From sequence record DRR723986_3397: a stretch of 40,019 bases of DNA. One strand, written 5' to 3'. The position numbers were made by a program, and so were the translations under genes. Positions within the stretch are counted from its first letter, which is position 1; every line of letters starts with the position of its first letter. Positions 88-38,187 of the stretch are shown here, one piece after another. The notes below the pieces were generated by a model. The model was not told the origin of the DNA. It did no database searches and saw nothing but the letters and a program-made list of their open reading frames with translations.

Positions 88-2328
88 TTAGTGTGTCGCC
101 GTGTCTGCCACGGGCAAACGCACCTTTGCAAAAGCCCGGCCCTTCACACGGGTCACACGCTCCACGTATTCAAGCCTGCGCAAGGCCATCAAAATGCGCG
201 CCAAGTGCACACGGTCAGTCACCTGAATGGTGAAATGCAGCAATTTGCGGTAGGCCGTTTCATCACTCATCGTCAGGTTGGTGATGTTGGCACCTGCGTC
301 TGACAAAGTGGCCGCGATCGTGGCCAGTGCGCCTTTCTCGTTCACCGCCTGCAAATCTACATTTACATCAAATGGGCGGGTAATTTCGGGTGACCATTGA
401 ACATCGGTCCAGCGCTCCGGTTCCTTGCGAATCTGTTTGCGGGCTGTTTCGCATTCATCGGTGTGAATGATCAAGCCTGAGCCCTTGCGCACATAGCCAA
501 TAATATTGTCACCGGGAATGGGCAGGCAGCAGGGCGCGCGTTGAACCGACATGCCTTCGCCACCGTGAATCATGATGGGTGCACGGGCCTCCCCCTGGTT
601 GCCCGAAGGCGCGTCCACTCTGGCGTCGGCTCTTCCCAAAGCAATGAGTACTCGGCGAGCCACCACCGGTGCCACACGCCGACCCGCGCCAATATCAGCC
701 AGCAACTCGTCACGGGTGCCGACTTGTGAATCCTTCAGCAAGCGGTCCCAAACCTCATTGCTCAGGTTATCCAATTTGATTTGGTCTGCCTCAAGCGCCT
801 GCTCCAACAACCGGCTTCCCAGGCGCACGGTTTCCTCAAGGTTCATCGACTTCAAATAGTGCCGAATCTCGGAGCGCGCTTTGCCTGAACGCACAAAACC
901 CAGCCAGACCGGATTGGGACGGCTGTGAGGCGCGGTAATAATTTCGACCACATCACCACTCTTCAGAATGGTACGCAATGGCTCAATCACCTGGTTCACG
1001 CGTGCAGCCACGCAATGGTTGCCCACATCGGTGTGTACTGCGTAGGCAAAGTCGACCACCGTGGCACCCCTCGGCAGGCTCATGATCTTGCCGTTCGGGG
1101 TGAATACGTATACGGCGTCCGGGAACAGGTCTACCTTGATGTGTTCCAGAAACTCGGCCGAATCGCCGGTCTGGTTTTGAATGTCAAGCAGGCTTTGCAG
1201 CAGGCGGTGGGTTTGCGTTTGAATGGTATTGAGTGCCTCACCTTCGCCTTTGTACAGCCAATGTGAGGCCACACCTTTTTCCGCCACCTGGTGCATTTCT
1301 TCAGTGCGAATTTGAAATTCGACCGGTGTACCGTATGGACCCAGCAAGGTGGTGTGCAGGCTTTGGTAGCCGTTCAGTTTTGGAATGGCGATGTAGTCCT
1401 TGAACTTGCCCGGTACCGGCTTGAACAGTTGGTGCAACATGCCCATGGCCATGTAACAACCAGGCATGTCTTTCACCACAACGCGGAAACCGTACACATC
1501 CAGCACCTGGGAAAAGCTCAGGCGTTTTTCAATCATTTTGCGGTAAATACCGTACAAGGCCTTTTCCCGGCCATACACCTGGCATTCAATGTTGGCGTCG
1601 CTCAGGCATTTCTCCACAGCTTCCAGAATTTTGCCCACCACTTCACGACGGTTGCCCCGTGCTGCCAACACCGCTTTCTTCAGCACCTCATAGCGCATGG
1701 GGTAAGCATGCTGGAAGCTGAGTTCTTGCAGTTCGCGGAAAATTTCATTCAAGCCCAGTCGATGGGCGATGGGAGCATAAATTTCGAGGGTTTCTAGAGC
1801 AATGCGGCGTTTTTTGGCGGGACTCATGATGTCGAGCGTTCGCATATTGTGCAAACGGTCTGCCAACTTCACCAGAATGACCCGCAAGTCTCGGGCCATG
1901 GCCAACAGCATTTTGCGGAAGTTTTCGGCCTGAGCTTCTTCCCGGGAGGAAAACTCCATTTTGTCGAGTTTTGAAAGCCCATCAACCAAATCAGCCACTG
2001 ATCCGCCGAAGCGCTCAATCAGGTCCTCCTTGGTGGTGCCCGAGTCCTCCATCACATCATGAAGCAGGGCGGCTTGAATGGCTTGGCTGTCCAGGCGCCA
2101 ACTGGCACAAAGCTCGGCCACCGCAATGGGATGGGTCACATAGGGTTCACCCGTTGCACGAAACTGCCCCAAGTGCGCAACGTCAGAAAACTTGTAAGCC
2201 TCGCGAACGCGCCGGATCTCAGCCTCTGGCAAATATGTCGAGGCTAGTCCAATAAGCTGTGCGATAGAGACCACATCGGGTCGGTTTGGCTCAGGTTGAA
2301 GTTCTCTGGCTTGCATTGCCCCCCGCAT
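88..2328 (-). CDS. spoT: Bifunctional (p)ppGpp synthetase/hydrolase SpoT
   Basis: Intact HD hydrolase motif (LLHDVMED), KLADRLHNMRTL, synthetase KFKDYI...NGYQSLHT, TGS (DFAYAVHTDVG), CC motif and C-terminal ACT domain. Confidence 0.97.
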   Translation of the reverse strand: MRGAMQARELQPEPNRPDVVSIAQLIGLASTYLPEAEIRRVREAYKFSDVAHLGQFRATGEPYVTHPIAVAELCASWRLDSQAIQAALLHDVMEDSGTTKEDLIERFGGSVADLVDGLSKLDKMEFSSREEAQAENFRKMLLAMARDLRVILVKLADRLHNMRTLDIMSPAKKRRIALETLEIYAPIAHRLGLNEIFRELQELSFQHAYPMRYEVLKKAVLAARGNRREVVGKILEAVEKCLSDANIECQVYGREKALYGIYRKMIEKRLSFSQVLDVYGFRVVVKDMPGCYMAMGMLHQLFKPVPGKFKDYIAIPKLNGYQSLHTTLLGPYGTPVEFQIRTEEMHQVAEKGVASHWLYKGEGEALNTIQTQTHRLLQSLLDIQNQTGDSAEFLEHIKVDLFPDAVYVFTPNGKIMSLPRGATVVDFAYAVHTDVGNHCVAARVNQVIEPLRTILKSGDVVEIITAPHSRPNPVWLGFVRSGKARSEIRHYLKSMNLEETVRLGSRLLEQALEADQIKLDNLSNEVWDRLLKDSQVGTRDELLADIGAGRRVAPVVARRVLIALGRADARVDAPSGNQGEARAPIMIHGGEGMSVQRAPCCLPIPGDNIIGYVRKGSGLIIHTDECETARKQIRKEPERWTDVQWSPEITRPFDVNVDLQAVNEKGALATIAATLSDAGANITNLTMSDETAYRKLLHFTIQVTDRVHLARILMALRRLEYVERVTRVKGRAFAKVRLPVADTATH

Positions 2329-8511: not shown

Positions 8512-8549
8512 TGCGTGCACTACGAAAGAACACGCACTGGAGAATTTGA

Positions 8550-9281
8550 ATGAATGCCACCACAGCCCGCCCTGACGGGCGAAGCCCCCACACCTTGCGC
8601 AATATCAGCCTGGAGCGCAATTACACCAAGCATGCCGAGGGTTCAGTCATGGTGCGTTTCGGCGACACCCATGTGTTGTGCACCTGCAGTGTTGAAGACA
8701 AGGTGCCGGGCTTTTTGAAGGGTCAGAATCAGGGTTGGTTGACTGCCGAATACGGCATGTTGCCCCGTTCTACCCATTCCCGCATGGATCGTGAGGCGGC
8801 CAAGGGCAAGCAAAGTGGCCGCACGCAGGAAATTCAGCGTTTGATTGGTCGTGCCTTGCGCGCAGCTGTCGATTTAAACAAGCTGGGTGAACGCACCTTG
8901 AAAATTGATTGCGATGTGATCCAGGCCGATGGCGGTACACGCACGGCATCGATCACGGGCGCCATGGTCGCTGTGGCCGATGCAATTGGCAAACTGGTGG
9001 CCAGCGGCGCTTTGGCTGAAAACCCGATCAAGCAGTTCGTAGCGGCTGTGTCGGTGGGAGTGGTCAATGGGCAGGTGGTGCTTGACTTGAATTACGACGA
9101 AGACTCCACCTGCGAAACCGACTTGAATGTGGTGATGACCGAGAAAGGCGGCTTTGTAGAAGTGCAGGGCACCGCCGAGGGCGATGCCTTTAGCCGGGAC
9201 GAATTGAATGGCATGCTGGACTCTGCCGCAGCCGGTATTGCTGAGCTGGTTCGCCTGCAGAAAGCGGCTTTACAGGCATAA
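8550..9281 (+). CDS. rph: Ribonuclease PH
   Basis: [45 protein letters not shown]. Confidence 0.98.
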
Positions 9282-11943: not shown

Positions 11944-14532
11944 ATGCGTTTAGATCGACTCACCACCAAGTTTCAGGAAGCTTTGGCCGACGCCCAGAGC
12001 CTGGCTGTGGGAAAAGACAACCCCACAGTTGAACCTGCACATGTGTTGTTGGCCATGCTCAAGCAGGGCGAGGGGTCTGTTCGCGGCGTCATCAGCAAGG
12101 CGGGCGGTAACCCGCAGGTGTTGGTCAAAGGCGTTGAGGCCGAGGTGAACAACCTGCCTCAAGTGGCCAACAATGCCGGTCAAATCCAGATTGGCAGCAA
12201 ATTACAAGCTGCCTTGAACCTCACTGACAAAGAGGCGCAAAAGCGAGGCGACCAGTTTATTGCCAGTGAACTGTTTTTGCTGGCTTGTTTGCAAGACAGC
12301 ACCGGGTTGGCCAAGGTCATGAAAGAGGCGGGCTTGAATGCCCAGTCGTTGAACACCGCAATTGAGCAGGTGCGCGGTGGCGCAGCTGTCGACAGCGCCG
12401 AGGGTGAAAGCCAGCGCGAAGCTTTGAAAAAATACACGATTGATTTAACCGAGCGCGCCCGGATGGGCAAGCTGGATCCCGTCATCGGTCGCGATGACGA
12501 AATTCGTCGTGCCATTCAAATTCTGCAGCGCCGAACCAAAAACAACCCTGTGCTGATTGGCGAGCCAGGCGTGGGAAAAACAGCCATTGTCGAAGGTCTG
12601 GCCCAACGCATCGTCAATGGCGAGGTACCCGATACCTTAAAGAACAAGCGTGTGCTGGTGCTGGACATTGCTTTGTTGTTGGCTGGTGCCAAATACCGTG
12701 GCGAGTTTGAAGAACGCTTGAAAGCGGTGTTGAAAGACATCGCAGCGGATGAAGGTCAAACCATTGTGTTCATTGATGAAATTCACACCATGGTGGGTGC
12801 TGGCAAAGCCGAGGGTGCAATTGATGCAGGCAACATGCTAAAACCTGCATTGGCCCGCGGTGAATTGCATTGCATTGGCGCCACCACCCTGGATGAATAC
12901 CGCAAATACATCGAAAAAGATGCCGCACTTGAGCGTCGTTTTCAGAAAGTACTGGTCGGTGAACCCAGTGTAGAAAGCACCATTGCCATTTTACGTGGCC
13001 TGCAGGAGCGCTATGAGTTGCACCACGGGGTCGACATTACCGACCCCGCCATTGTTGCGGCTGCGGAGCTCAGCCACCGCTACATCACCGATCGCTTCCT
13101 GCCTGACAAAGCCATTGATCTGATCGATGAGGCTGCAGCCCGAATCAAGATGGAAATTGACTCCAAGCCTGAGGAAATGGACAAGCTGGATCGCCGGATC
13201 ATTCAGCTGAAAATTGAACGCGAGGCTGTCAAGCGAGAGCAAGACGAAGCCTCTAAAAAGCGCCTGGCCTTGATCGAGGAAGAAATTGTTCGACTTGAGC
13301 GCGAGTACGCAGACCTCGACGAAATCTGGAAAAGTGAAAAGGCCGCAGTGCAGGGCAGTGCGGCCATCAAGGAAGAAATTGATCACATTCGCGCAGAAAT
13401 CGAGCAGTTGAAACGCAAGGGCGATTGGCAGAAAGTGTCTGAACTTCAGTACGGCAAATTGCCCGATCTGGAGAAAAAACTGAATGATGTGAAAGACAAC
13501 GAGGGTGGAGAAAAGAAGCCGAACAGGCTGTTGCGCACCCAGGTTGGCACCGAGGAAATTGCAGAGGTGGTTAGCCGCGCAACCGGCATTCCAGTGAGCA
13601 AAATGCTGCAAGGTGAACGCGACAAGTTGTTGCAAATGGAAGCTGCCTTGCACCTGCGTGTCGTCGGGCAGGACGAAGCCGTTACTTTGGTGTCTGACGC
13701 CATTCGCCGTTCGCGTGCCGGTCTCTCTGACCCCAACAAGCCCTTGGGTTCGTTCCTGTTTCTGGGCCCCACCGGTGTGGGTAAAACAGAGCTGTGCAAG
13801 GCGCTGGCTGGCTTCCTGTTTGATTCGGAAGACCATCTGATTCGCATCGACATGAGTGAGTTCATGGAGAAGCACAGTGTGAGCAGGCTGGTGGGTGCGC
13901 CTCCAGGGTATGTAGGCTACGACGAAGGCGGTTACCTGACCGAAGCCGTGCGCCGCAAACCTTACAGCGTAATTTTGCTGGATGAGGTGGAAAAGGCTCA
14001 CCCCGACGTGTTCAACGTGCTGTTGCAAGTGCTGGACGATGGGCGTTTGACCGATGGGCAGGGCCGCACTGTAGACTTTAAAAATACAGTCATTGTGATG
14101 ACATCCAACCTGGGTTCGCATGAAATTCAGCGTTTGGCAGGTCAGGATGGCGAGGTGATTAAAGCTGCGGTCATGGAAGAGGTGAAGCAGCACTTCCGTC
14201 CGGAATTCATCAACCGGGTGGATGAGCTGGTGGTGTTCCACGCTTTGGACAATGCGCACATTGCAAACATCGCCCGCATTCAGTTGCAGCGTTTGCAGCA
14301 GCGCCTGGCCAGCCGCGACATGCGCCTGGAAGTGAGTGATGCGGCATTGGCCGAAGTGGTCAAGGCAGGTTTTGATCCTTTGTATGGTGCAAGGCCTTTG
14401 AAGCGCGCCATTCAGCAAATCATCGAGAACCCGGTTTCAAAAATGATTCTGGAAGGCCGGTTTGGGCCGAACGATGTTGTGCCGGTTGATTTCAAGGAAG
14501 GGGCGTTCACCTTTGAACGGGTGGTTCACTGA
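11944..14532 (+). CDS. clpB: ATP-dependent disaggregase ClpB
   Basis: Two AAA+ modules ([16 protein letters not shown]), coiled-coil middle domain, [17 protein letters not shown]. Confidence 0.99.
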
Positions 14533-14543
14533 GTGCAGCTATT

Positions 14544-14635
14544 TGAAATCGCATAGCTGTGCTCATCGAAGTCGCGTGGCTTCTTTATTCGAAGCCGCGT
14601 AGCTTCGTTCTTCGAAGCCGCTGAACTCTGCGCCT
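14544..14635. repeat. Degenerate 23-bp tandem array, four units, core YGAARYCGC
   Basis: Units start at 14544, 14567, 14590 and 14613; units 2-3 are GAAG..CTTC mini-hairpins. Confidence 0.7.
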
Positions 14636-14835
14636 GAGAAGCCTTGCCCCAGTCACTTCTCTCGCAGCCCCGCCCAACGTGAATATTGCGGCGATGGCCG
14701 TTCTGATCCCGTTCGGAATGGATGCCGCAAACGCTAACGCGTCTTGCGGAGCCGCTTCGCGTCTAATCCATTCCAAACAGGGAACGGCGGGCGGGTCTTG
14801 AACGTCGCGAGTAAGTGACTGTGGCAAGGCTTCTC
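14636..14835 (-). repeat. Fold-back element 1 (200 nt; REPIN/MITE-like or ncRNA)
   Basis: About 30-bp terminal inverted arms (14636-14665/14807-14835), inner stems GCCGTTC/GAACGGC and GGAATGGAT/ATCCATTCC, two-hairpin cap. Confidence 0.75.
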
Positions 14836-14884
14836 CAGCGCGAATATTGGTTCTTGCGTTGACCAGTGAATTCGAGACGCTGCT

Positions 14885-14916
14885 GCGGACTTGCGGACTT
14901 GCGGACTTGCGGGCTT
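14885..14916. repeat. 8-bp tandem repeat (GCGGACTT)3 plus GCGGGCTT
   Basis: Read directly from the sequence. Confidence 0.9.
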
Positions 14917-14942
14917 CGCTGAGCGATGGTGTTCTTTATTCA

Positions 14943-15115
14943 CGGTGTAGTGTCGCGATCATCTTGCCGATTCAGGTGGGCTTCCCGCTTGATGCACGGC
15001 GAGGGGCGACTCCGCAAGGAGTCGATGCGAAGACGCGTTCGCGTTTCGCATGCCCCAAGCAAGCAATCAAGAAGGGATTAAAGCCCGCCAAGGCGGGATG
15101 ACGTGACCTGCACCG
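14943..15115 (+). ncRNA. Fold-back element 2 (about 175 nt): candidate structured ncRNA or ssDNA element
   Basis: Nested stems with five G-U-compatible pairs on the + strand, closed by a three-way junction with a GCAA-loop hairpin and a bulged-G hairpin; transcription not shown. Confidence 0.5.
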
Positions 15116-15160
15116 GGAACAATACACGAGTTCCAACGCCTTGCCCGCCAAGGCGGGATG
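15083..15160. repeat. Two identical 18-bp REP-like palindromes GCCCGCCAAGGCGGGATG
   Basis: Copies at 15083-15100 and 15143-15160; CCCGCC-AA-GGCGGG palindrome. Confidence 0.85.
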
Positions 15161-15192
15161 CAACAATGCACAAGCGTCGCAATGCCCACGTA

Positions 15193-16071
15193 TCAATGCG
15201 CTGCAGCGTACATTGCCTCGCCAGCCTCGACAGGGTTACCGGTCTTGTTGAACACCTCAAGCCACACACCATAGTTGTGGACTGTGGGGTCTTGCCAAGG
15301 GTGAAACCCAGGTTTGAAGTAGTTCAACAATTTGGGCAGCAGGCTGCTATATAGCCCTTTTGGACCCAACAGCCAGACCAGGCCTTTCGAGTACATTTTG
15401 AACCGTGTCCAGCCCTTGAAACCATCGGTGCCCAGAATAATCCAGGTGAATACCAGCGTGTGTAAGGTGAAGTTGAACATGGCGTGGGCCATGGCAAGGC
15501 TTCGCTTGAAATAACCTACTTTGGCCACTTTCTGCATGACATCAAATGCCACAGCCTTGTGTTCCATTTCTTCAATGGCATGCCACGCCAACATGGCACG
15601 AACCCGATGATCTGCGCCGGCCATCACTTCCTTGCGGGCAAAAAACATCTCGGCCATCATGGCTGTGAAATGCTCCAACGCTGCGGTCATGGCCAGGTTG
15701 TACTCTGGTGACAGAACCTGCAAACGGCGGTTCATGATCTTCGTAATCACATGCAACATTTTGTCCACTGGCACACCTTGCTCTTTCAGGCGCCTGTTGT
15801 AGTCGGTGTGAACCTTGCCATGTTGACCTTCCTGAAAGGAAAAGTCTTTCACTGCTTTCAACAACTCAGGATCGGTGATTTTGTCTTTGAAATTGCGAAC
15901 GCTCGAGATGAAATAACGCTCGCCGTCCGGAAAACTCATTTGAACACCATCAATCACGCGGGTTTTGAACGCGTCTCCATCCATCCAATAGCGGGGGATG
16001 TCCTTGTCAGTGATTCCAAAATCCAGATCTTTCCGGACTACGATGTCTTCTTTGAACGATGTTGTTGTCAT
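15193..16071 (-). CDS. Predicted metal-dependent hydrolase (ferritin-like Metal_hydrol family)
   Basis: SFPDGERYFI, QEGQHGKVH, ALEHFTA, WHAIEEMEHKAVAFD, YFKPGFHPW; ATG at 16071 with GGAGG RBS. Confidence 0.88.
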   Translation of the reverse strand: MTTTSFKEDIVVRKDLDFGITDKDIPRYWMDGDAFKTRVIDGVQMSFPDGERYFISSVRNFKDKITDPELLKAVKDFSFQEGQHGKVHTDYNRRLKEQGVPVDKMLHVITKIMNRRLQVLSPEYNLAMTAALEHFTAMMAEMFFARKEVMAGADHRVRAMLAWHAIEEMEHKAVAFDVMQKVAKVGYFKRSLAMAHAMFNFTLHTLVFTWIILGTDGFKGWTRFKMYSKGLVWLLGPKGLYSSLLPKLLNYFKPGFHPWQDPTVHNYGVWLEVFNKTGNPVEAGEAMYAAAH

Positions 16072-16195
16072 GACTGCCTCCTGCTGCATTGTGTGAATAA
16101 AGATTACCGAATCACCACAACACACGATATGATTTGAAATGACAAAAAGGGAAGAATTCGCGACAGGTTTAATCGTTCGCGTCACAGGAGGTTTG

Positions 16196-17200
16196 GTGGA
16201 AACCATCAATTTTCAAATGCTTGCAAGCCTTGCCAATGCTGCACGGCGCTGCGACATTGATTTGAACAGTGTGATGCAGGAGCTGAAACTGGAAATTGAC
16301 ATGACCGGGGACCCTCGTCGGCGCATGTCTTTGTCGTGCTTTAGTTCTTTGTTCTCCGCAGTTGAGGCACGCAAACCAAGCCAACACTTTCCGCTGGTGT
16401 TTGGTGATTCTTTCAACTTCGATGGTTTGCCCGAGTTGGCCACTTTTGTGACCAGTGCGTCTACTCCTCAAGAGGCCATGAGAGTATTGGACTGGTCCCC
16501 CAAGCTGCTTCATCCGAATTTGCATTTTACAACGCTCAATTTGGGTAGCGAAGCGGCGTTAGAGATCAGGGTGCCCGATCCGGAAGGCGTAAACGAAGAC
16601 CTGCCAGGATTTGTCGAGGCGGCCATGTCTGCTGTTTTGAAGTTTATCCATCTTCTCAGTCCTGGCTCACACCTGATCAAGCGCATCGAATTTCGCCATG
16701 CGCCATTGACCCAGGAGTCGGCCTATCTGGAGGTGCTCAAGACCACGGTGCTGTTCAAGCAGGCCCACAATCGCTTGGTGGTGGATTCGTCTGCACTGGA
16801 TTTGCCCTTGCCTGGGGGTATTCCTTCAGCACATCACAAGGCGCAGGCTGTGATTTTGAACCGCTTGTTACCGGATGTTGAAGAGCAAACCCTTGAAAAA
16901 CAAATCAAGCGTTTGTTGAGGTCGCGTTTGAGTATGTTGAGTGAGCCAATACAGGTGATAGCCGAGGTGCTGCATATTCACCCGCGTACCTTACAGCGAA
17001 GGCTGAAAAGCGAGGGCAAGTCGTATGCTGAAATTCTGGGGGCTGTTCGCCACGAACTGGCCCGCGAGATGCTGAAAGGCTCGGTACTCGACATTGAAAC
17101 GATTGCAGCGAATCTGGGTTATTCCGATCGTCGAAGCTTCACCAGTGCATTCTTGAAATGGCAGGGGGTCTCTCCGCGGGAATTCAGAAATCAGCAGTGA
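16196..17200 (+). CDS. AraC family regulator (OruR/ArgR-like N-domain)
   Basis: C-terminal HPRTLQRRLK..G and IAANLGYSDRRSFTSAFLKWQGVSPREFR; divergent from the hydrolase; start uncertain (16139 or 16196). Confidence 0.9.
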   Translation: METINFQMLASLANAARRCDIDLNSVMQELKLEIDMTGDPRRRMSLSCFSSLFSAVEARKPSQHFPLVFGDSFNFDGLPELATFVTSASTPQEAMRVLDWSPKLLHPNLHFTTLNLGSEAALEIRVPDPEGVNEDLPGFVEAAMSAVLKFIHLLSPGSHLIKRIEFRHAPLTQESAYLEVLKTTVLFKQAHNRLVVDSSALDLPLPGGIPSAHHKAQAVILNRLLPDVEEQTLEKQIKRLLRSRLSMLSEPIQVIAEVLHIHPRTLQRRLKSEGKSYAEILGAVRHELAREMLKGSVLDIETIAANLGYSDRRSFTSAFLKWQGVSPREFRNQQ

Positions 17201-35892: not shown

Positions 35893-38187
35893 CTAACGCC
35901 GCCGCACTTCAAATACACCGTTGATTTCCAGCAGGTGAGTCAGTGCTCCGCGCAACTGCTCACCACTGCTCACCTCGGCGGTGAATTGCATTTTGGCAAT
36001 GCCGCGTTGTGTTTCAGTTTGTACGCCAATCACATTGATTTTGTCTTTTGAAAATACTTCGGTGATATCGCGCAGCAAACCCTGCCTGTCGTTCGCGGTT
36101 ACTGCAATGTCCACGGGGTAGTGCAAGCCCGAGGACTCTCCCCAGGTGGTTTCAATCAGCCGTTCGGGTTGTCGACGCATTACCTCGGCCAGGTTGGAAC
36201 AACCAAGCCGGTGAATGGACACACCTTTGCCGCGGGTAACAAAACCAATAATCGGATCGGGTGGGGCAGGTCGGCAGCATCGCGCCAGGTTGGTCATCAA
36301 TGTGCTGACACCGACGACAAGCACACCGGACTCCTTGCCCGTTGAGTTACCCAACGAGCCTGGTTTGCGTTTGTTAAGTAACTCAACCTGCTCTTCGTCT
36401 GACAATGGCCCGGCAGGTTGCAGGTCGGGGCGCAAGGCGTTTTCAATGGCGCGGGGCCGTATTTCTTCACGAGCCAACGCGACATACAAATCATCGGGTT
36501 TTTCGTAGCCCAACTTTTGGGCCAATAGCTCCAGGTTTTGTGCGGTCTGCCCGATGCGTTGCAGTTCACGTTCAGCAATCGCACGGCCGCGTTCAAGTGT
36601 TTCCTTGCGTTCTTGCTGGGCGAACCACTGCTTTACCTTTTGACGAGCGCGGTGGCTGATCAGGTACTTTTGCGTGGGGTTCAGCCAGTCGCGGGAGGGA
36701 CCGGTGGCCGCATCACCGCGAGCACTCACAATTTCAACCGTTTGACCATTGTCCAGGGGCGTGTTCAGTTGCACCATTTGCCCGTTGACCTTGGCACCGC
36801 GGCAACGATGGCCCAATTCAGTGTGCACGTGATAAGCGAAATCCAGTGGCGTACTGCCGGTGGGCAATTCAACGACCTTGGCCTGTGGCGTGAATACGTA
36901 TACCCGGTCGTTCAGCGCGCTGGTTTTCATTTCCTGCGCCCAGTCGCTGGCTTCACCCATGGTGTCGGTGACGTCTTTTTGCCAGGCCAACAGTTGGCGT
37001 AACAAGGCAATACGCTCTTCAAACTGGCCCTCGGCTCGACTTTCGCCGGTGTAGCCATCTTTGCCCGATTCTTTGTATCGCCAGTGCGCCGCCACACCAT
37101 ATTCAGCAAACTGGTGCATGGCTTCCGTGCGAATTTGCACTTCCAGCGTTTTGCCTGTCTCGTCCTGCACCACGGTGTGCAGGCTTTGATAGCCATTGGG
37201 CTTGGGCTTGCTGATGTAGTCGTCGAATTCTTCAGGGATGGGAGTCCACAAGTTGTGGACAATGCCCAATGCGGTGTAGCAGTCATCGACTGTGTCTACA
37301 ATCACACGGCATGCACGCACGTCGTACAGCTTGTCGAAGCTGATACCCTTGCCTCGCATCTTGTTCCAGATGCTGTAAATGTGTTTCGGGCGCCCACTGA
37401 TTTCACAATGAATGCCAGCCAGCAACAAATTTTCCTTGATGCTGGCCATGGCCGATTCAATGAATGCTTCACGTTCCACGCGTTTTTCATCCAGCATCTT
37501 GGCCACGTTTTTGTACGTGTTGGGTTGCAAGATGCGGAACGACAAATCTTCGAGTTCCCACTTCAACTGCCACAGCCCCAAACGGTTGGCAAGGGGGGCA
37601 TAGAGATCGAGGGTTTCCTGCGCATGCGACACCGCATATGGCCAAAGAGGGCCTTTCTCGTTTTTGATGTCCTCGTGGCTGGTAAAGTGCCTCAAGGTTT
37701 GGAGTCGGGAACACAAACGAATCATGATGACGCGAATGTCGGTGGACATGGCCAGCAACATTTTGCGCAAGGTTTCAATTTGGTCGGCCCACCGCAGGGT
37801 TTCAATAGTGGTGCGCGTGGCGCTGGGCCCTACCATGGATCGCATTTTGAAAAGTTTGCGCAGGCTGGCCAGCATGCGGCCCACTTCATCACCGAACTTT
37901 TTCTCCATCTGGCTTTCAAGGTGTTTGTCAAAAAACACCAATGGCCCCAGGGCGCCTGCGATGCGGGTGTTGGCATCGGCGCGCAACTCCGCCAACAGGT
38001 CAGCCACAGCCAACATGTGTTGAATAGCGGGTTCTTGAGTATCCAGAATATGGTCAGCTGCGTGAAGTCGTGCGTAATTCAGTGCTTCTTCAACCCGGGC
38101 CGCGTCAAATTTGTTCAACAACACCAGGGCTGGCGCAGAAGCGCCGCCGTTTTTCTCGGAGCCCAGTGTTGATGAAACTGAAACCAT
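35893..38187 (-). CDS. relA: (p)ppGpp synthetase RelA
   Basis: Degenerate hydrolase domain (no HD), GRPKHIYSIWNKM, EFDDYI..PKPNGYQSLHT, TGS and ACT domains. Confidence 0.93.
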   Translation of the reverse strand: MVSVSSTLGSEKNGGASAPALVLLNKFDAARVEEALNYARLHAADHILDTQEPAIQHMLAVADLLAELRADANTRIAGALGPLVFFDKHLESQMEKKFGDEVGRMLASLRKLFKMRSMVGPSATRTTIETLRWADQIETLRKMLLAMSTDIRVIMIRLCSRLQTLRHFTSHEDIKNEKGPLWPYAVSHAQETLDLYAPLANRLGLWQLKWELEDLSFRILQPNTYKNVAKMLDEKRVEREAFIESAMASIKENLLLAGIHCEISGRPKHIYSIWNKMRGKGISFDKLYDVRACRVIVDTVDDCYTALGIVHNLWTPIPEEFDDYISKPKPNGYQSLHTVVQDETGKTLEVQIRTEAMHQFAEYGVAAHWRYKESGKDGYTGESRAEGQFEERIALLRQLLAWQKDVTDTMGEASDWAQEMKTSALNDRVYVFTPQAKVVELPTGSTPLDFAYHVHTELGHRCRGAKVNGQMVQLNTPLDNGQTVEIVSARGDAATGPSRDWLNPTQKYLISHRARQKVKQWFAQQERKETLERGRAIAERELQRIGQTAQNLELLAQKLGYEKPDDLYVALAREEIRPRAIENALRPDLQPAGPLSDEEQVELLNKRKPGSLGNSTGKESGVLVVGVSTLMTNLARCCRPAPPDPIIGFVTRGKGVSIHRLGCSNLAEVMRRQPERLIETTWGESSGLHYPVDIAVTANDRQGLLRDITEVFSKDKINVIGVQTETQRGIAKMQFTAEVSSGEQLRGALTHLLEINGVFEVRRR

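What the first reader, a model, noticed from the sequence alone, without database searches (positions are those of the whole stretch)
14533..15192. Paired structured elements with a shared, covarying three-way-junction cap: candidate new ncRNA or ssDNA element family
Seen: the 660-bp gap between clpB and the convergent hydrolase holds two long fold-backs in opposite orientation. Their arms differ in sequence, but both end in the same cap: a closing stem, a short hairpin (loop GAA in one, GCAA in the other), then a hairpin with AA, a bulged G, ACGC-GTT[A/C]-GCGT and TT. The core AAGACGCGTT[A/C]GCGTTT is 16/17 identical (minus strand 14729-14745; plus strand 15030-15046), while the basal stem changes compensatorily (CCGC/GCGG versus ATGCG/CGCAT). 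Inference: structure conserved despite sequence change implies selection on a single-stranded fold. Candidates are an undescribed ncRNA motif or a non-autonomous element recognised in trans by an HUH/RAYT-type enzyme. No such enzyme is encoded in this window.
Basis: partly seen in the sequence, partly recalled or inferred. Interest (0 to 1): 0.85.

Follow-up and report, generated by a model that had tools for sequence, protein, structure and literature searches.

The report
Two-hairpin intergenic repeat module of Limnobacter
The gap between clpB and a hydrolase gene holds one copy of a non-coding, two-hairpin DNA module that is scattered through the genomes of one bacterial genus (Limnobacter), matches no catalogued family, and has no identified means of spreading.

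Summary
Fold-back A (14626-14845, minus) and fold-back B (14939-15119, plus) each fold about 10 sd better than shuffles. Both end in the same three-way-junction cap.

They belong to repeat families:
- B has 16 copies in the nearest genome. It occurs in 17 of 26 genomes of the genus and in 0 of 35 other genera searched.
- A has 1 to 6 or more copies per genome.
- A third hairpin family, C, pairs head to head with B in the same layout.

A-B and C-B pairs of about 500 nt are themselves repeated units. They are flanked by tandem copies of each hairpin's own 3' arm. One such unit fills a site where two convergent stop codons lie 7-8 nt apart in six other species.

Stems covary strongly and the cap is nearly invariant. 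Nothing matches in Rfam, plasmids or phages.

The RAYT/HUH idea is not supported: Y1 transposase is found in 1 of 26 genomes. IS110, TnpB, reverse transcriptase and integron integrase do not track the elements either.

RNA versus DNA remains open. The G.U excess holds for B but not for A, and an in-situ inversion shows that the arms recombine.

Best reading: a new, genus-specific, BIME/MITE-like family of structured intergenic repeats with an unknown mobilising or binding factor.

The parts
14525..14570 (+). Small imperfect hairpin overlapping the clpB stop codon. It lies outside the repeat module proper.
   Evidence: pair I3: arms of 18 nt, 78% complementary. It forms in the fold.
14566..14621 (.). 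Outward tail of fold-back A: a 23-nt tandem repeat, 2.4 copies, whose unit resembles A's outer 3' arm. Copy number varies between strains.
   Evidence: TRF, period 23, 87% matches. families D2 and D3. In one search one contig of run X1 lacks 23 nt at 14579.
14626..14845 (-). Fold-back A: a hairpin of about 220 nt with a side branch and a three-way-junction cap. It is a member of the A family.
   Evidence: z -9.66. 14 copies were aligned; 88.7% of cells paired, 19 pairs changed on both sides, slid controls 33-40%.
14708..14781 (-). Cap of A: a closing stem, a CGC-GAA-GCG mini-hairpin, and a conserved hairpin CCGC-AA-G-ACGC/GTTA/GCGT-TT-GCGG.
   Evidence: I4 closing stem; I2 core at 14729-14745.. 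Model R1, built from B copies only, matches 14697-14788 (minus) at 22.2 bits, E 3.7e-5.
14846..14938 (.). Central spacer between the two 5' ends. It contains the octamer TGCGGACT x4.1 (14884-14916), whose copy number varies between strains.
   Evidence: family D1. In one search the contig of run X2 lacks 16 nt at 14884. No sigma-70-like promoter was found.
14939..15119 (+). Fold-back B: a hairpin of about 180 nt with a three-way-junction cap, member of the B family (subfamily 1). The covariance-model match is 14954-15105.
   Evidence: z -9.98. (132.8 bits, E 1.2e-28)..
14999..15063 (+). Cap of B: closing stem GGGGC/GCCCC, a hairpin with a GCAA loop, and a conserved hairpin ATGCG-AA-G-ACGC/GTTC/GCGT-TT-CGCAT. 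It is nearly invariant across all copies.
   Evidence: invariant columns. (helices 6-8); 96.5% identity among five orthologous copies.
15083..15160 (+). Outward tail of B: the 18-nt 3' outer-arm segment occurs twice with a 60-nt period. The nearest genome has one more unit.
   Evidence: family D4 (15083-15100 and 15143-15160, 100% identical); query 144-231 matches a second time, shifted by 60 nt.

Best explanation
The 660-bp gap is one copy of a composite, non-coding, dispersed DNA module. It consists of two long hairpin elements placed head to head, with their 5' ends facing a short repeat-rich spacer. Each hairpin is followed on its outer side by tandem copies of its own 3' arm.

A and B belong to two related families of a superfamily confined, as far as searched, to the genus Limnobacter. 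A third family, C, takes A's place in most modules. The modules sit mainly between the 3' ends of convergent genes, differ in presence and copy number between species and strains, and carry no ORF.

Shown:
- repetition of the hairpins and of the whole modules;
- restriction to one genus among the genomes searched;
- presence/absence polymorphism between species and strains;
- conserved fold with many compensatory changes;
- a cap more conserved than the neighbouring genes.

Inferred mechanism: the long arms serve to extrude or fold a hairpin, in single-stranded DNA, as a cruciform, or in read-through RNA. This presents the nearly invariant three-way-junction cap to a trans-acting protein. That protein either copies or moves the module, or uses it for a host purpose at gene ends. 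The protein is not a RAYT/Y1 enzyme, and none of the other candidate enzyme families tested tracks the elements.

In kind, this is a BIME/MITE-like structured intergenic repeat.
For: Copy number and spread:
- 16 B copies in the nearest genome.
- B present in 17 of 26 genomes of the genus, with 1-29 copies, and in 0 of 35 genomes of other genera of the family and order.
- In the global pattern scan of named genomes, 24 of 117 listed stretches passed my motif test for B-type, plus one variant that fails it by one base. They lie in Limnobacter records or in unnamed MAGs. The other 92 are single, unrelated matches.
- A-type copies exist at other loci.

Fold and covariation:
- B: 88.3% of cells paired versus 78.8 +/- 0.7 in shuffles (0 of 500 as high); 26 pairs changed on both sides; slid controls 30-39%.
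- A: 88.7% paired; 19 pairs changed on both sides; slid controls 33-40%.

Composite units:
- C sits head to head with B.
- The C-B unit of about 400-500 nt is repeated at many loci. At least 16 of 20 fetched G016 loci contain both halves.
- The window's own A-B unit (window 14638-15107) recurs at three other G016 loci at 73-75% identity.

Insertion and deletion polymorphism:
- A 626-nt composite in G016 lies where 7-8 nt separate two stop codons in six species.
- There is an empty site for a B copy in G012.
- Strain variants lack B at the window locus.
- The clpB-hydrolase gap ranges from 63 to 976 nt in 18 species.

Conservation: the cap is 96.5% identical among five orthologous copies, against 88-90% for flanking genes and 70% for the spacer.

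No matches in catalogues: Rfam, tRNA, plasmids and phages.
Against: - No mobilising enzyme was found. Y1 is in 1 of 26 genomes, IS110 in 1 of 26, TnpB in 2 of 26, reverse transcriptase in 7 of 26, and integron integrase above its cut-off in 3 of 26. None tracks the 17 element-positive genomes.
- No clear target-site duplication. One empty site shows a palindromic TTTGCAAA split by the element. The G016 site shows none. The window-locus indels have ragged ends.
- Many copies are orthologous across species, so movement is rare.
- Other, unrelated gene cassettes occupy the same sites in some species. The sites may therefore simply be permissive hot spots.
- The high conservation of the cap at fixed loci fits a host function, or gene conversion, as well as it fits mobility.
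Confidence: 0.6

Rival explanations
1. Cis-acting RNA elements. The hairpins work in read-through transcripts at convergent gene ends, as barriers, processing sites or stabilisers that keep transcription from running antisense into the neighbouring gene. Their spread is secondary.
For: - 14 of 16 B copies in the nearest genome have their 3' end 39-168 nt from the stop codon of a gene that reads towards them (by my own ORF heuristic).
- Modules fill gaps between convergent stop codons.
- The first cap hairpin mostly has GNNA-type loops.
- B stems hold more G.U than A.C: 92 versus 38 once the fixed cap pair is set aside. The sense strand is the more stable one in 44 of 49 copies.
- A contig of an RNA library runs from clpB through A (run X11).
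- The cap is more conserved than the flanking genes at orthologous loci.
Against: - No U-tract follows either hairpin, and the terminator scan finds only one small site, at 14568-14583.
- There is no conserved promoter in the spacer.
- The G.U excess is absent in A: 37 versus 38.
- One orthologous copy is inverted in two species without loss.
- Contigs cannot show strand or level, and DNA may be present in the RNA library.
Confidence: 0.2
2. Stand-alone small RNA genes. A and B are transcribed divergently from the central spacer as a multi-copy sRNA family.
For: - The head-to-head layout would allow divergent transcription from the spacer.
- The fold and cap are conserved.
Against: - No sigma-70-like promoter was found in 14400-15300.
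- The spacers are short tandem repeats that differ in sequence and length between copies.
- Solo B copies have no conserved upstream sequence.
- There is no Rfam match.
Confidence: 0.06
3. REPIN/BIME or IS200/IS605-type elements, moved as single-stranded hairpins by a RAYT or other Y1 HUH enzyme.
For: - Hairpin elements in alternating orientation with variable linkers resemble BIMEs and REP doublets.
- The abstracts of PMC2817692 and PMC3116915, seen in the listing, describe that kind of element.
Against: - PF01797 is found in 1 of 26 genomes. The control genomes respond, 6 of 14.
- TnpB is found in 2 of 26 genomes.
- The elements are 150-220 nt, not about 20-40 nt (recalled size of REPs).
- Copy numbers are 1-30, not the more than 100 given in the abstract of PMC2817692.
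Confidence: 0.02
4. Recombination sites of a cassette system. The hairpins act like integron attC sites, or as portable homology, through which small gene cassettes are captured.
For: - A TacA-GNAT toxin-antitoxin pair lies between two direct A-like copies in G007. A lipoprotein plus an M23 peptidase lie between two direct A copies in G016 and G014.
- A 53%-identical lipoprotein gene lies between two inverted B copies in the nearest genome.
- The site that holds a composite in G016 holds RES-Xre in G003, and HicAB plus Tae4 next to a C hairpin in G006.
Against: - Integron integrase is above its cut-off in only 3 of 26 genomes and is absent from the nearest genome.
- The elements are dispersed singly or in pairs, not in arrays.
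- The G003 cassette has no hairpin element.
- No attC-type core sites were noticed. That was an inspection of the sequences only, not a formal test.
Confidence: 0.07
5. Functionless palindromic DNA. Its arms stay complementary through arm-to-arm conversion or template switching, so the covariation reflects mutation mechanics and not selection.
For: - The arms recombine: the whole element is inverted at one orthologous locus in 2 of 5 species.
- A shows no strand asymmetry.
- Decayed copies exist: an internal deletion in G020, a 5' truncation in G003, and a remnant in G013.
Against: - The cap sequence, including unpaired junction bases, is nearly invariant across subfamilies and is more conserved than the neighbouring genes.
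- 6-bp cap stems covary (helix 7: 97.6% of cells paired, 4 of 6 pairs changed on both sides).
- B shows a G.U excess on one strand.
Confidence: 0.05

Closest known systems
REP / BIME / REPIN elements of Enterobacteria and Pseudomonas, mobilised by RAYT. Abstracts of PMC2817692 and PMC3116915 were seen in the listing.
   Same: Non-coding extragenic palindromes. They occur in alternating orientation as mosaic units with variable linkers, and are lineage-specific.
   Different: The units here are 150-220 nt with a branched three-way-junction cap, instead of a short simple stem-loop. There are 1-30 copies per genome, not hundreds. No RAYT gene was found in 25 of 26 genomes. The conserved part is the cap, not the stem base.
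Bacterial MITEs that fold as long hairpins: Correia/NEMIS of Neisseria, ERIC, RUP, bcr1. These are recalled. The review PMC3184786 was seen as an abstract only.
   Same: Size class of 100-250 nt, intergenic, whole-length fold-back, subfamilies, and some presence/absence polymorphism.
   Different: No parent insertion sequence and no consistent target duplication were found. The ends vary while the centre is conserved, which is the reverse of a transposase-bound inverted-repeat element. The elements occur as two-hairpin composites with tandem tail repeats. Sequence relatedness to these families was not tested.
Integron attC sites
   Same: Structure is conserved more than sequence. There are bulged bases, a variable terminal structure, and an association with small cassettes such as toxin-antitoxin pairs.
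   Different: The elements are not in arrays next to intI. IntI was found in 3 of 26 genomes. In attC the conserved part is the stem base (recalled), whereas here it is the cap. These elements are also much longer.
Branched palindromic intergenic repeats noted earlier in this scan in other phyla. These are AI notes and are unchecked.
   Same: A three-way or four-way junction core that is highly conserved. Outer stems change sequence but stay paired. Positions lie just after stop codons, often on the opposite strand. There is no RAYT and no catalogue entry.
   Different: Different phyla and no sequence similarity (one search found no look-alike). The head-to-head two-hairpin composite with tandem tails is described only here.

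Membership tests
Any Rfam RNA family | A covariance-model match at or near the family's gathering score. | tested here: not met
   three matches, E 4.3-8.3, 11-16 bits against gathering scores of 44-49; no match up to E 1 on a G016 composite.
REP/REPIN-RAYT | A RAYT (Y1 transposase, PF01797) gene in genomes that carry the repeats. | tested here: not met
   1 of 26 genomes. The nearest genome (16 copies) and G016 (30 copies) have none. The control search responds in 6 of 14 known genomes.
REP/REPIN-RAYT | A short REP stem-loop of about 20-40 nt, in high copy number, with doublets in inverted orientation. | tested here: not met
   The units are 150-220 nt and there are 1-30 copies per genome. 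Only the inverted pairing is shared.
MITE (non-autonomous derivative of an insertion sequence) | Terminal inverted repeats. | tested here: met
   The whole element is an inverted repeat (pair I1). The termini differ between subfamilies and copies, however.
MITE (non-autonomous derivative of an insertion sequence) | A target-site duplication of fixed length. | tested here: inconclusive
   One empty site is compatible with a 2-4 nt duplication inside a palindromic TTTGCAAA. The G016 insertion and the window-locus variants show none.
MITE (non-autonomous derivative of an insertion sequence) | A full-length element with the same ends that encodes a transposase. | tested here: inconclusive
   - None was seen next to any copy examined.
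- There are no plasmid or phage matches.
- IS110, TnpB and Y1 are nearly absent from the genus.
- DDE transposase families were not searched.
BIME-like mosaic element | Palindromic units in alternating orientation, separated by variable linkers, forming repeated composites. | tested here: met
   For the window: A(-)/spacer/B(+).
Integron attC | An integron integrase in the genome, with sites arranged in cassette arrays. | tested here: not met
   TIGR02249 above its cut-off in 3 of 26 genomes. The copies are dispersed.
IS110-type element with bridge RNA, or IS200/605 with TnpB guide RNA | The cognate recombinase or nuclease gene in the genome. | tested here: not met
   PF01548 in 1 of 26 genomes. 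PF07282 in 2 of 26 genomes.
Intrinsic terminator | A GC-rich stem followed by a U-tract. | tested here: not met
   the only terminator-like site is a small hairpin at 14568-14583, inside A's tail. No T-run follows A or B.

The most novel reading that the evidence does not exclude
The modules are a new class of hairpin-borne genetic element. The invariant three-way-junction cap is the recognition site of a still unidentified protein that copies or places two-hairpin modules precisely between convergent gene ends. This protein would be none of the Y1/RAYT, IS110, TnpB, reverse transcriptase or integron integrase families. The same hairpins would also serve as docking sites for small gene cassettes such as toxin-antitoxin pairs and effector-immunity pairs. 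If the similar branched repeats noted in other phyla work the same way, this would be a widespread and unrecognised mode of intergenic DNA mobility.
Probability: 0.2. Interest if true: 0.85.

Novelty: new variant of a known kind. Interest (0 to 1): 0.6.

Why it matters
Structured intergenic repeats are common, but the way they spread is understood for only a few, chiefly REP/RAYT and IS-derived MITEs.

This is a clean, tractable case in cultivable bacteria. The cap is more conserved than the neighbouring genes, and the arms change while staying paired. The modules land between convergent stop codons. None of the five candidate enzyme families tested accounts for them.

Identifying the factor that reads the cap would do one of two things. 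It would reveal a new mobilisation mechanism, or a new host use of DNA or RNA hairpins at gene ends.

The finding also carries a caution. In long DNA palindromes, covariation alone does not prove an RNA.

Tried and rejected
- The window's own assembly is not held, so all genome work used the nearest genome, G001, and its relatives.
- Replication-strand bias. With dnaA at position 1, 19 of 30 R1 matches in G016 and 7 of 13 in G012 have one orientation relative to fork direction. That is no convincing bias, so a lagging-strand single-stranded-DNA argument was dropped.
- Autonomous element. The 5.7 kb between two A-B composites in G016 holds housekeeping-looking ORFs, which I named by eye as a fatty-acid/sterol desaturase-like protein and aconitase. 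They were not scanned against Pfam.
- A truncated B copy in G001 contig 37 simply runs into unrelated sequence.
- The 60-nt hairpin of G020, which corresponds to B's outer stem, is single-copy. It matches only B arms elsewhere, so it is a deletion derivative and not a REP-like target.
- The 580-bp gap in my ORF list at 8512-9091 folds no better than shuffles (z -0.31) and is unrelated.
- RNA evidence. Only Logan contigs could be laid, and they cannot show strand, ends or level. The one true RNA library (X11) covers clpB through A, but in a strain variant that lacks B. This says nothing about transcription of B.
- Literature. The search for 'Limnobacter' with 'repetitive' gave 12 papers, of which 10 were listed; none of the 10 listed is on genome repeats, judging by titles and abstracts. 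The search on intergenic repeats, compensatory changes, hairpins and MITEs gave general repeat papers only (abstracts). No description of these elements turned up in these two searches.
- DDE transposases, Xer and other tyrosine or serine recombinases were not tested for co-occurrence.
Full report

The gap 14533-15192 lies between ClpB (11944-14532, +) and a convergent PF10118 metal-dependent hydrolase (15193-16209, -).

- Fold-back A has outer arms 14630-14658 / 14813-14841 (29 nt, 90% complementary) and inner arms listed. On the minus strand it folds at -126.6 kcal/mol, z -9.66, with 0 of 200 shuffles as good.
- Fold-back B (14936-15125, plus strand) folds at -108.6 kcal/mol, z -9.98, with 0 of 200 shuffles as good.
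- The shared 17-nt core is at exactly the stated coordinates and is 94% complementary (I2).
- Both caps are three-way junctions. Each has a closing stem, a short hairpin (loop GAA in A, GCAA in B) and a hairpin AA-G-ACGC/N4/GCGT-TT. The basal stem of that hairpin is CCGC/GCGG in A and ATGCG/CGCAT in B.
- Rfam gives nothing real: 3 chance-level matches, E 4.3-8.3. ARAGORN finds no tRNA.

B IS A MEMBER OF A DISPERSED FAMILY

- BLAST against the nearest held genome, G001, found about 16 related places.
- Fifteen copies all fold into the same long hairpin with the same cap.
- On their alignment, 88.3% of cells pair, against 78.8 +/- 0.7 in shuffles (0 of 500 as high). 26 of 58 pairs have changes on both sides. 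Versions with the partner slid by 1-3 columns pair at only 30-39%.
- Three subfamilies differ throughout the arms, but the cap is nearly invariant.
- A covariance model (R1) finds 16 copies in G001.
- It finds copies in 17 of 26 genomes of the same genus (1-29 per genome) and in 0 of 35 genomes from 35 other genera of the family and order.
- Record titles in a scan of named genomes show that the genus is Limnobacter. All lie in Limnobacter records or unnamed MAGs. The other 92 were single, unrelated matches.
- The cap motif AAGACGC-N4-GCGTTT occurs 130 times in 15 of 26 genus genomes, against 4 for the reversed control.

A IS ALSO A FAMILY, AND A RELATIVE OF B

- R1, built from B copies only, matches A's cap at 14697-14788 (minus) with 22.2 bits, E 3.7e-5, in a 451-nt search with filters off. 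It does not match A with default filters over the whole window.
- Motif hits outside the B copies led to A-type elements in G016 (6 or more), G014, G015, G012, G006 and G021. They also led to two divergent copies in G007, whose basal stem is CCGG/CCGG.
- Fourteen aligned A copies pair in 88.7% of cells (shuffles 83.9 +/- 0.5, 0 of 500 as high). 19 pairs have changes on both sides, and slid controls pair at 33-40%.
It extends to a third state.

THE UNIT IS THE PAIR

- Weak R1 matches next to strong ones revealed a third hairpin family, C. It has a different three-way-junction cap. It always lies on the 5' side of B, on the opposite strand, 70-90 nt away.
- The C-spacer-B block of about 400-500 nt recurs at many loci. 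At least 16 of 20 fetched G016 loci contain both halves.
- The window's A-spacer-B block (14638-15107) recurs at three further G016 loci at 73-75% identity.
- The spacers are short tandem repeats that differ between copies. In the window it is TGCGGACT x4.1.
- On the outer side of each hairpin lie tandem copies of that hairpin's own 3' outer arm. In the window these are the 23-nt x2.4 repeat at 14566-14621 and the 18-nt segment at 15083 and 15143. In G016 copies there are up to four or more units.
- Copy numbers of these small repeats differ between near-identical strains.
- The whole 660-bp gap is thus one composite module.

WHERE THE MODULES SIT, AND HOW THEY COME AND GO

- In G001, 14 of 16 B copies have their 3' end 39-168 nt from the stop codon of a gene reading towards them (my own ORF heuristic). 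This follows naturally if head-to-head composites lie between convergent genes.
- In G016 a 626-nt composite fills the space between two convergent stop codons. These are 7-8 nt apart in six other species by coordinates, and four of those are shown base by base. No target duplication is visible.
- The same site holds other things in other species: another composite in G011, a RES-Xre pair in G003, and HicAB plus a Tae4-like gene next to a C hairpin in G006.
- A B copy of G001 is absent in G012. There the empty site reads TTTGCAAA, and the occupied site has TTTGCA...TGCAAA at the element ends.
- At the window locus the gap ranges from 63 to 976 nt in 18 species, with decayed copies: a 5'-truncated B in G003, a remnant of A in G013, and an internally deleted B in G020.
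- Contigs of two runs carry a strain variant that lacks 14871-15182.
- Many copies are nevertheless orthologous across species.

WHAT MOVES OR READS THEM IS UNKNOWN

Counts below are out of the 26 genus genomes.

| Family | Genomes with it |
|---|---|
| Y1/RAYT (PF01797) | 1 |
| IS110 (PF01548) | 1 |
| TnpB (PF07282) | 2 |
| Reverse transcriptase (PF00078) | 7 |
| Integron integrase, above cut-off | 3 |

- None of these tracks the 17 element-bearing genomes. G016, with the most copies, has intact IntI only.
- The window encodes housekeeping genes only.
- There is no match in plasmids or phages.
- DDE transposases and other recombinases were not tested.

RNA OR DNA?

For a single-stranded, strand-specific role:
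- B stems hold 131 G.U against 39 A.C pairs. That is 92 against 38 without the fixed cap pair, and 62 against 16 in the outer stem.
- The sense strand is the more stable one in 44 of 49 distinct copies.
- The first cap hairpin mostly has GNNA loops.

Against:
- A shows no asymmetry (37 against 38), with the sense strand more stable in 9 of 14 copies. C gives 7 of 10.
- Copies are related, so these counts are not independent.
- There is no promoter-like site and no U-tract.
- There is no bias relative to replication direction.

At five orthologous copies of one locus the cap is 96.5% identical. The flanking genes are 88-90% identical and the spacer 70%. In the G006 orthologue the outer stem has changed on both sides and still pairs. 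This points to constraint, or conversion, acting in place.

However, at another locus the whole element is inverted in G004 and G012 relative to G001, G023 and G009. The arms therefore do recombine. Arm-to-arm conversion or template switching could keep palindromes complementary without selection on a fold. That cannot explain the invariance of the cap sequence.

COMPARISON WITH KNOWN ELEMENTS

- In kind, these are structured intergenic repeats. They resemble BIMEs in mosaic layout, long-hairpin MITEs in size, and attC sites in keeping structure over sequence.
- They fail the defining tests of REP/RAYT, IS200/605, IS110 and integron systems. They match no Rfam family.
- No paper on them was found (listings and abstracts only).
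- Earlier notes of this scan describe similar branched, cap-conserved repeats after stop codons in other phyla. Those notes are unchecked. There is no sequence similarity.

VERDICT

This is a real, undescribed, genus-specific family of two-hairpin repeat modules: a new variant of a known kind. The RAYT idea does not. The RNA reading is not shown.

Noticed in passing
L040:1737-1895 (+), L041:1704-1862 (+), L061:1750-1905 (+), L060:1272-1427 (-), L101:49-207 (-), L097:25-186 (-): A third long-hairpin family, C, of about 160-215 nt. Its three-way-junction cap has a different sequence. It always lies head to head with a B copy. Among five orthologues it is 95% conserved, more than the flanking genes.
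   Followed up: partly
L043:1493-1651 versus L276 and L277 (same locus in G004 and G012): The whole B element is inverted in two of five species at an orthologous position, with the flanks kept. This is either a flip by recombination between the arms or a second insertion at the same site.
   Followed up: partly
L294:1823-2448 (G016); L335 (G003); L336 (G006); L337 (G011): The spot between an S1-domain gene and an AFG1-like ATPase gene has stop codons 7-8 nt apart in six species. In other species it holds a 626-nt hairpin composite, a RES-Xre pair, HicAB plus Tae4 with a putative immunity gene, or another composite. It is an insertion hot spot.
   Followed up: partly
L046:1501-2375 (G001 contig 50); L093 (G016); L090 (G007): Small genes are bracketed by hairpin elements. 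A 142-aa lipoprotein-like ORF with no Pfam match lies between two inverted B copies. A 53%-identical homologue, plus an M23 peptidase, lies between two direct A copies. A TacA-GNAT pair lies between two direct A-like copies.
   Followed up: partly
L052:1676-1760 and L061, downstream of B: The same terminator-like hairpin (an A-run, a GC-rich stem and a T-run) follows B copies at unrelated loci in two species. It may be a further small repeat module.
   Followed up: no
window 88-2328 (-) and 35893-38187 (-): Two RelA/SpoT-family genes lie in one 40-kb window, together with polyphosphate kinase and Ppx/GppA. This is an ordinary stringent-response and polyphosphate neighbourhood.
   Followed up: no
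G006 loci L288:575-1500 and L278:2217-3716: At two sites where G001 has a B copy, G006 has unrelated inserts of 926 and 1718 bp with hypothetical ORFs and no hairpin element. The ORFs were not scanned against Pfam.
   Followed up: no
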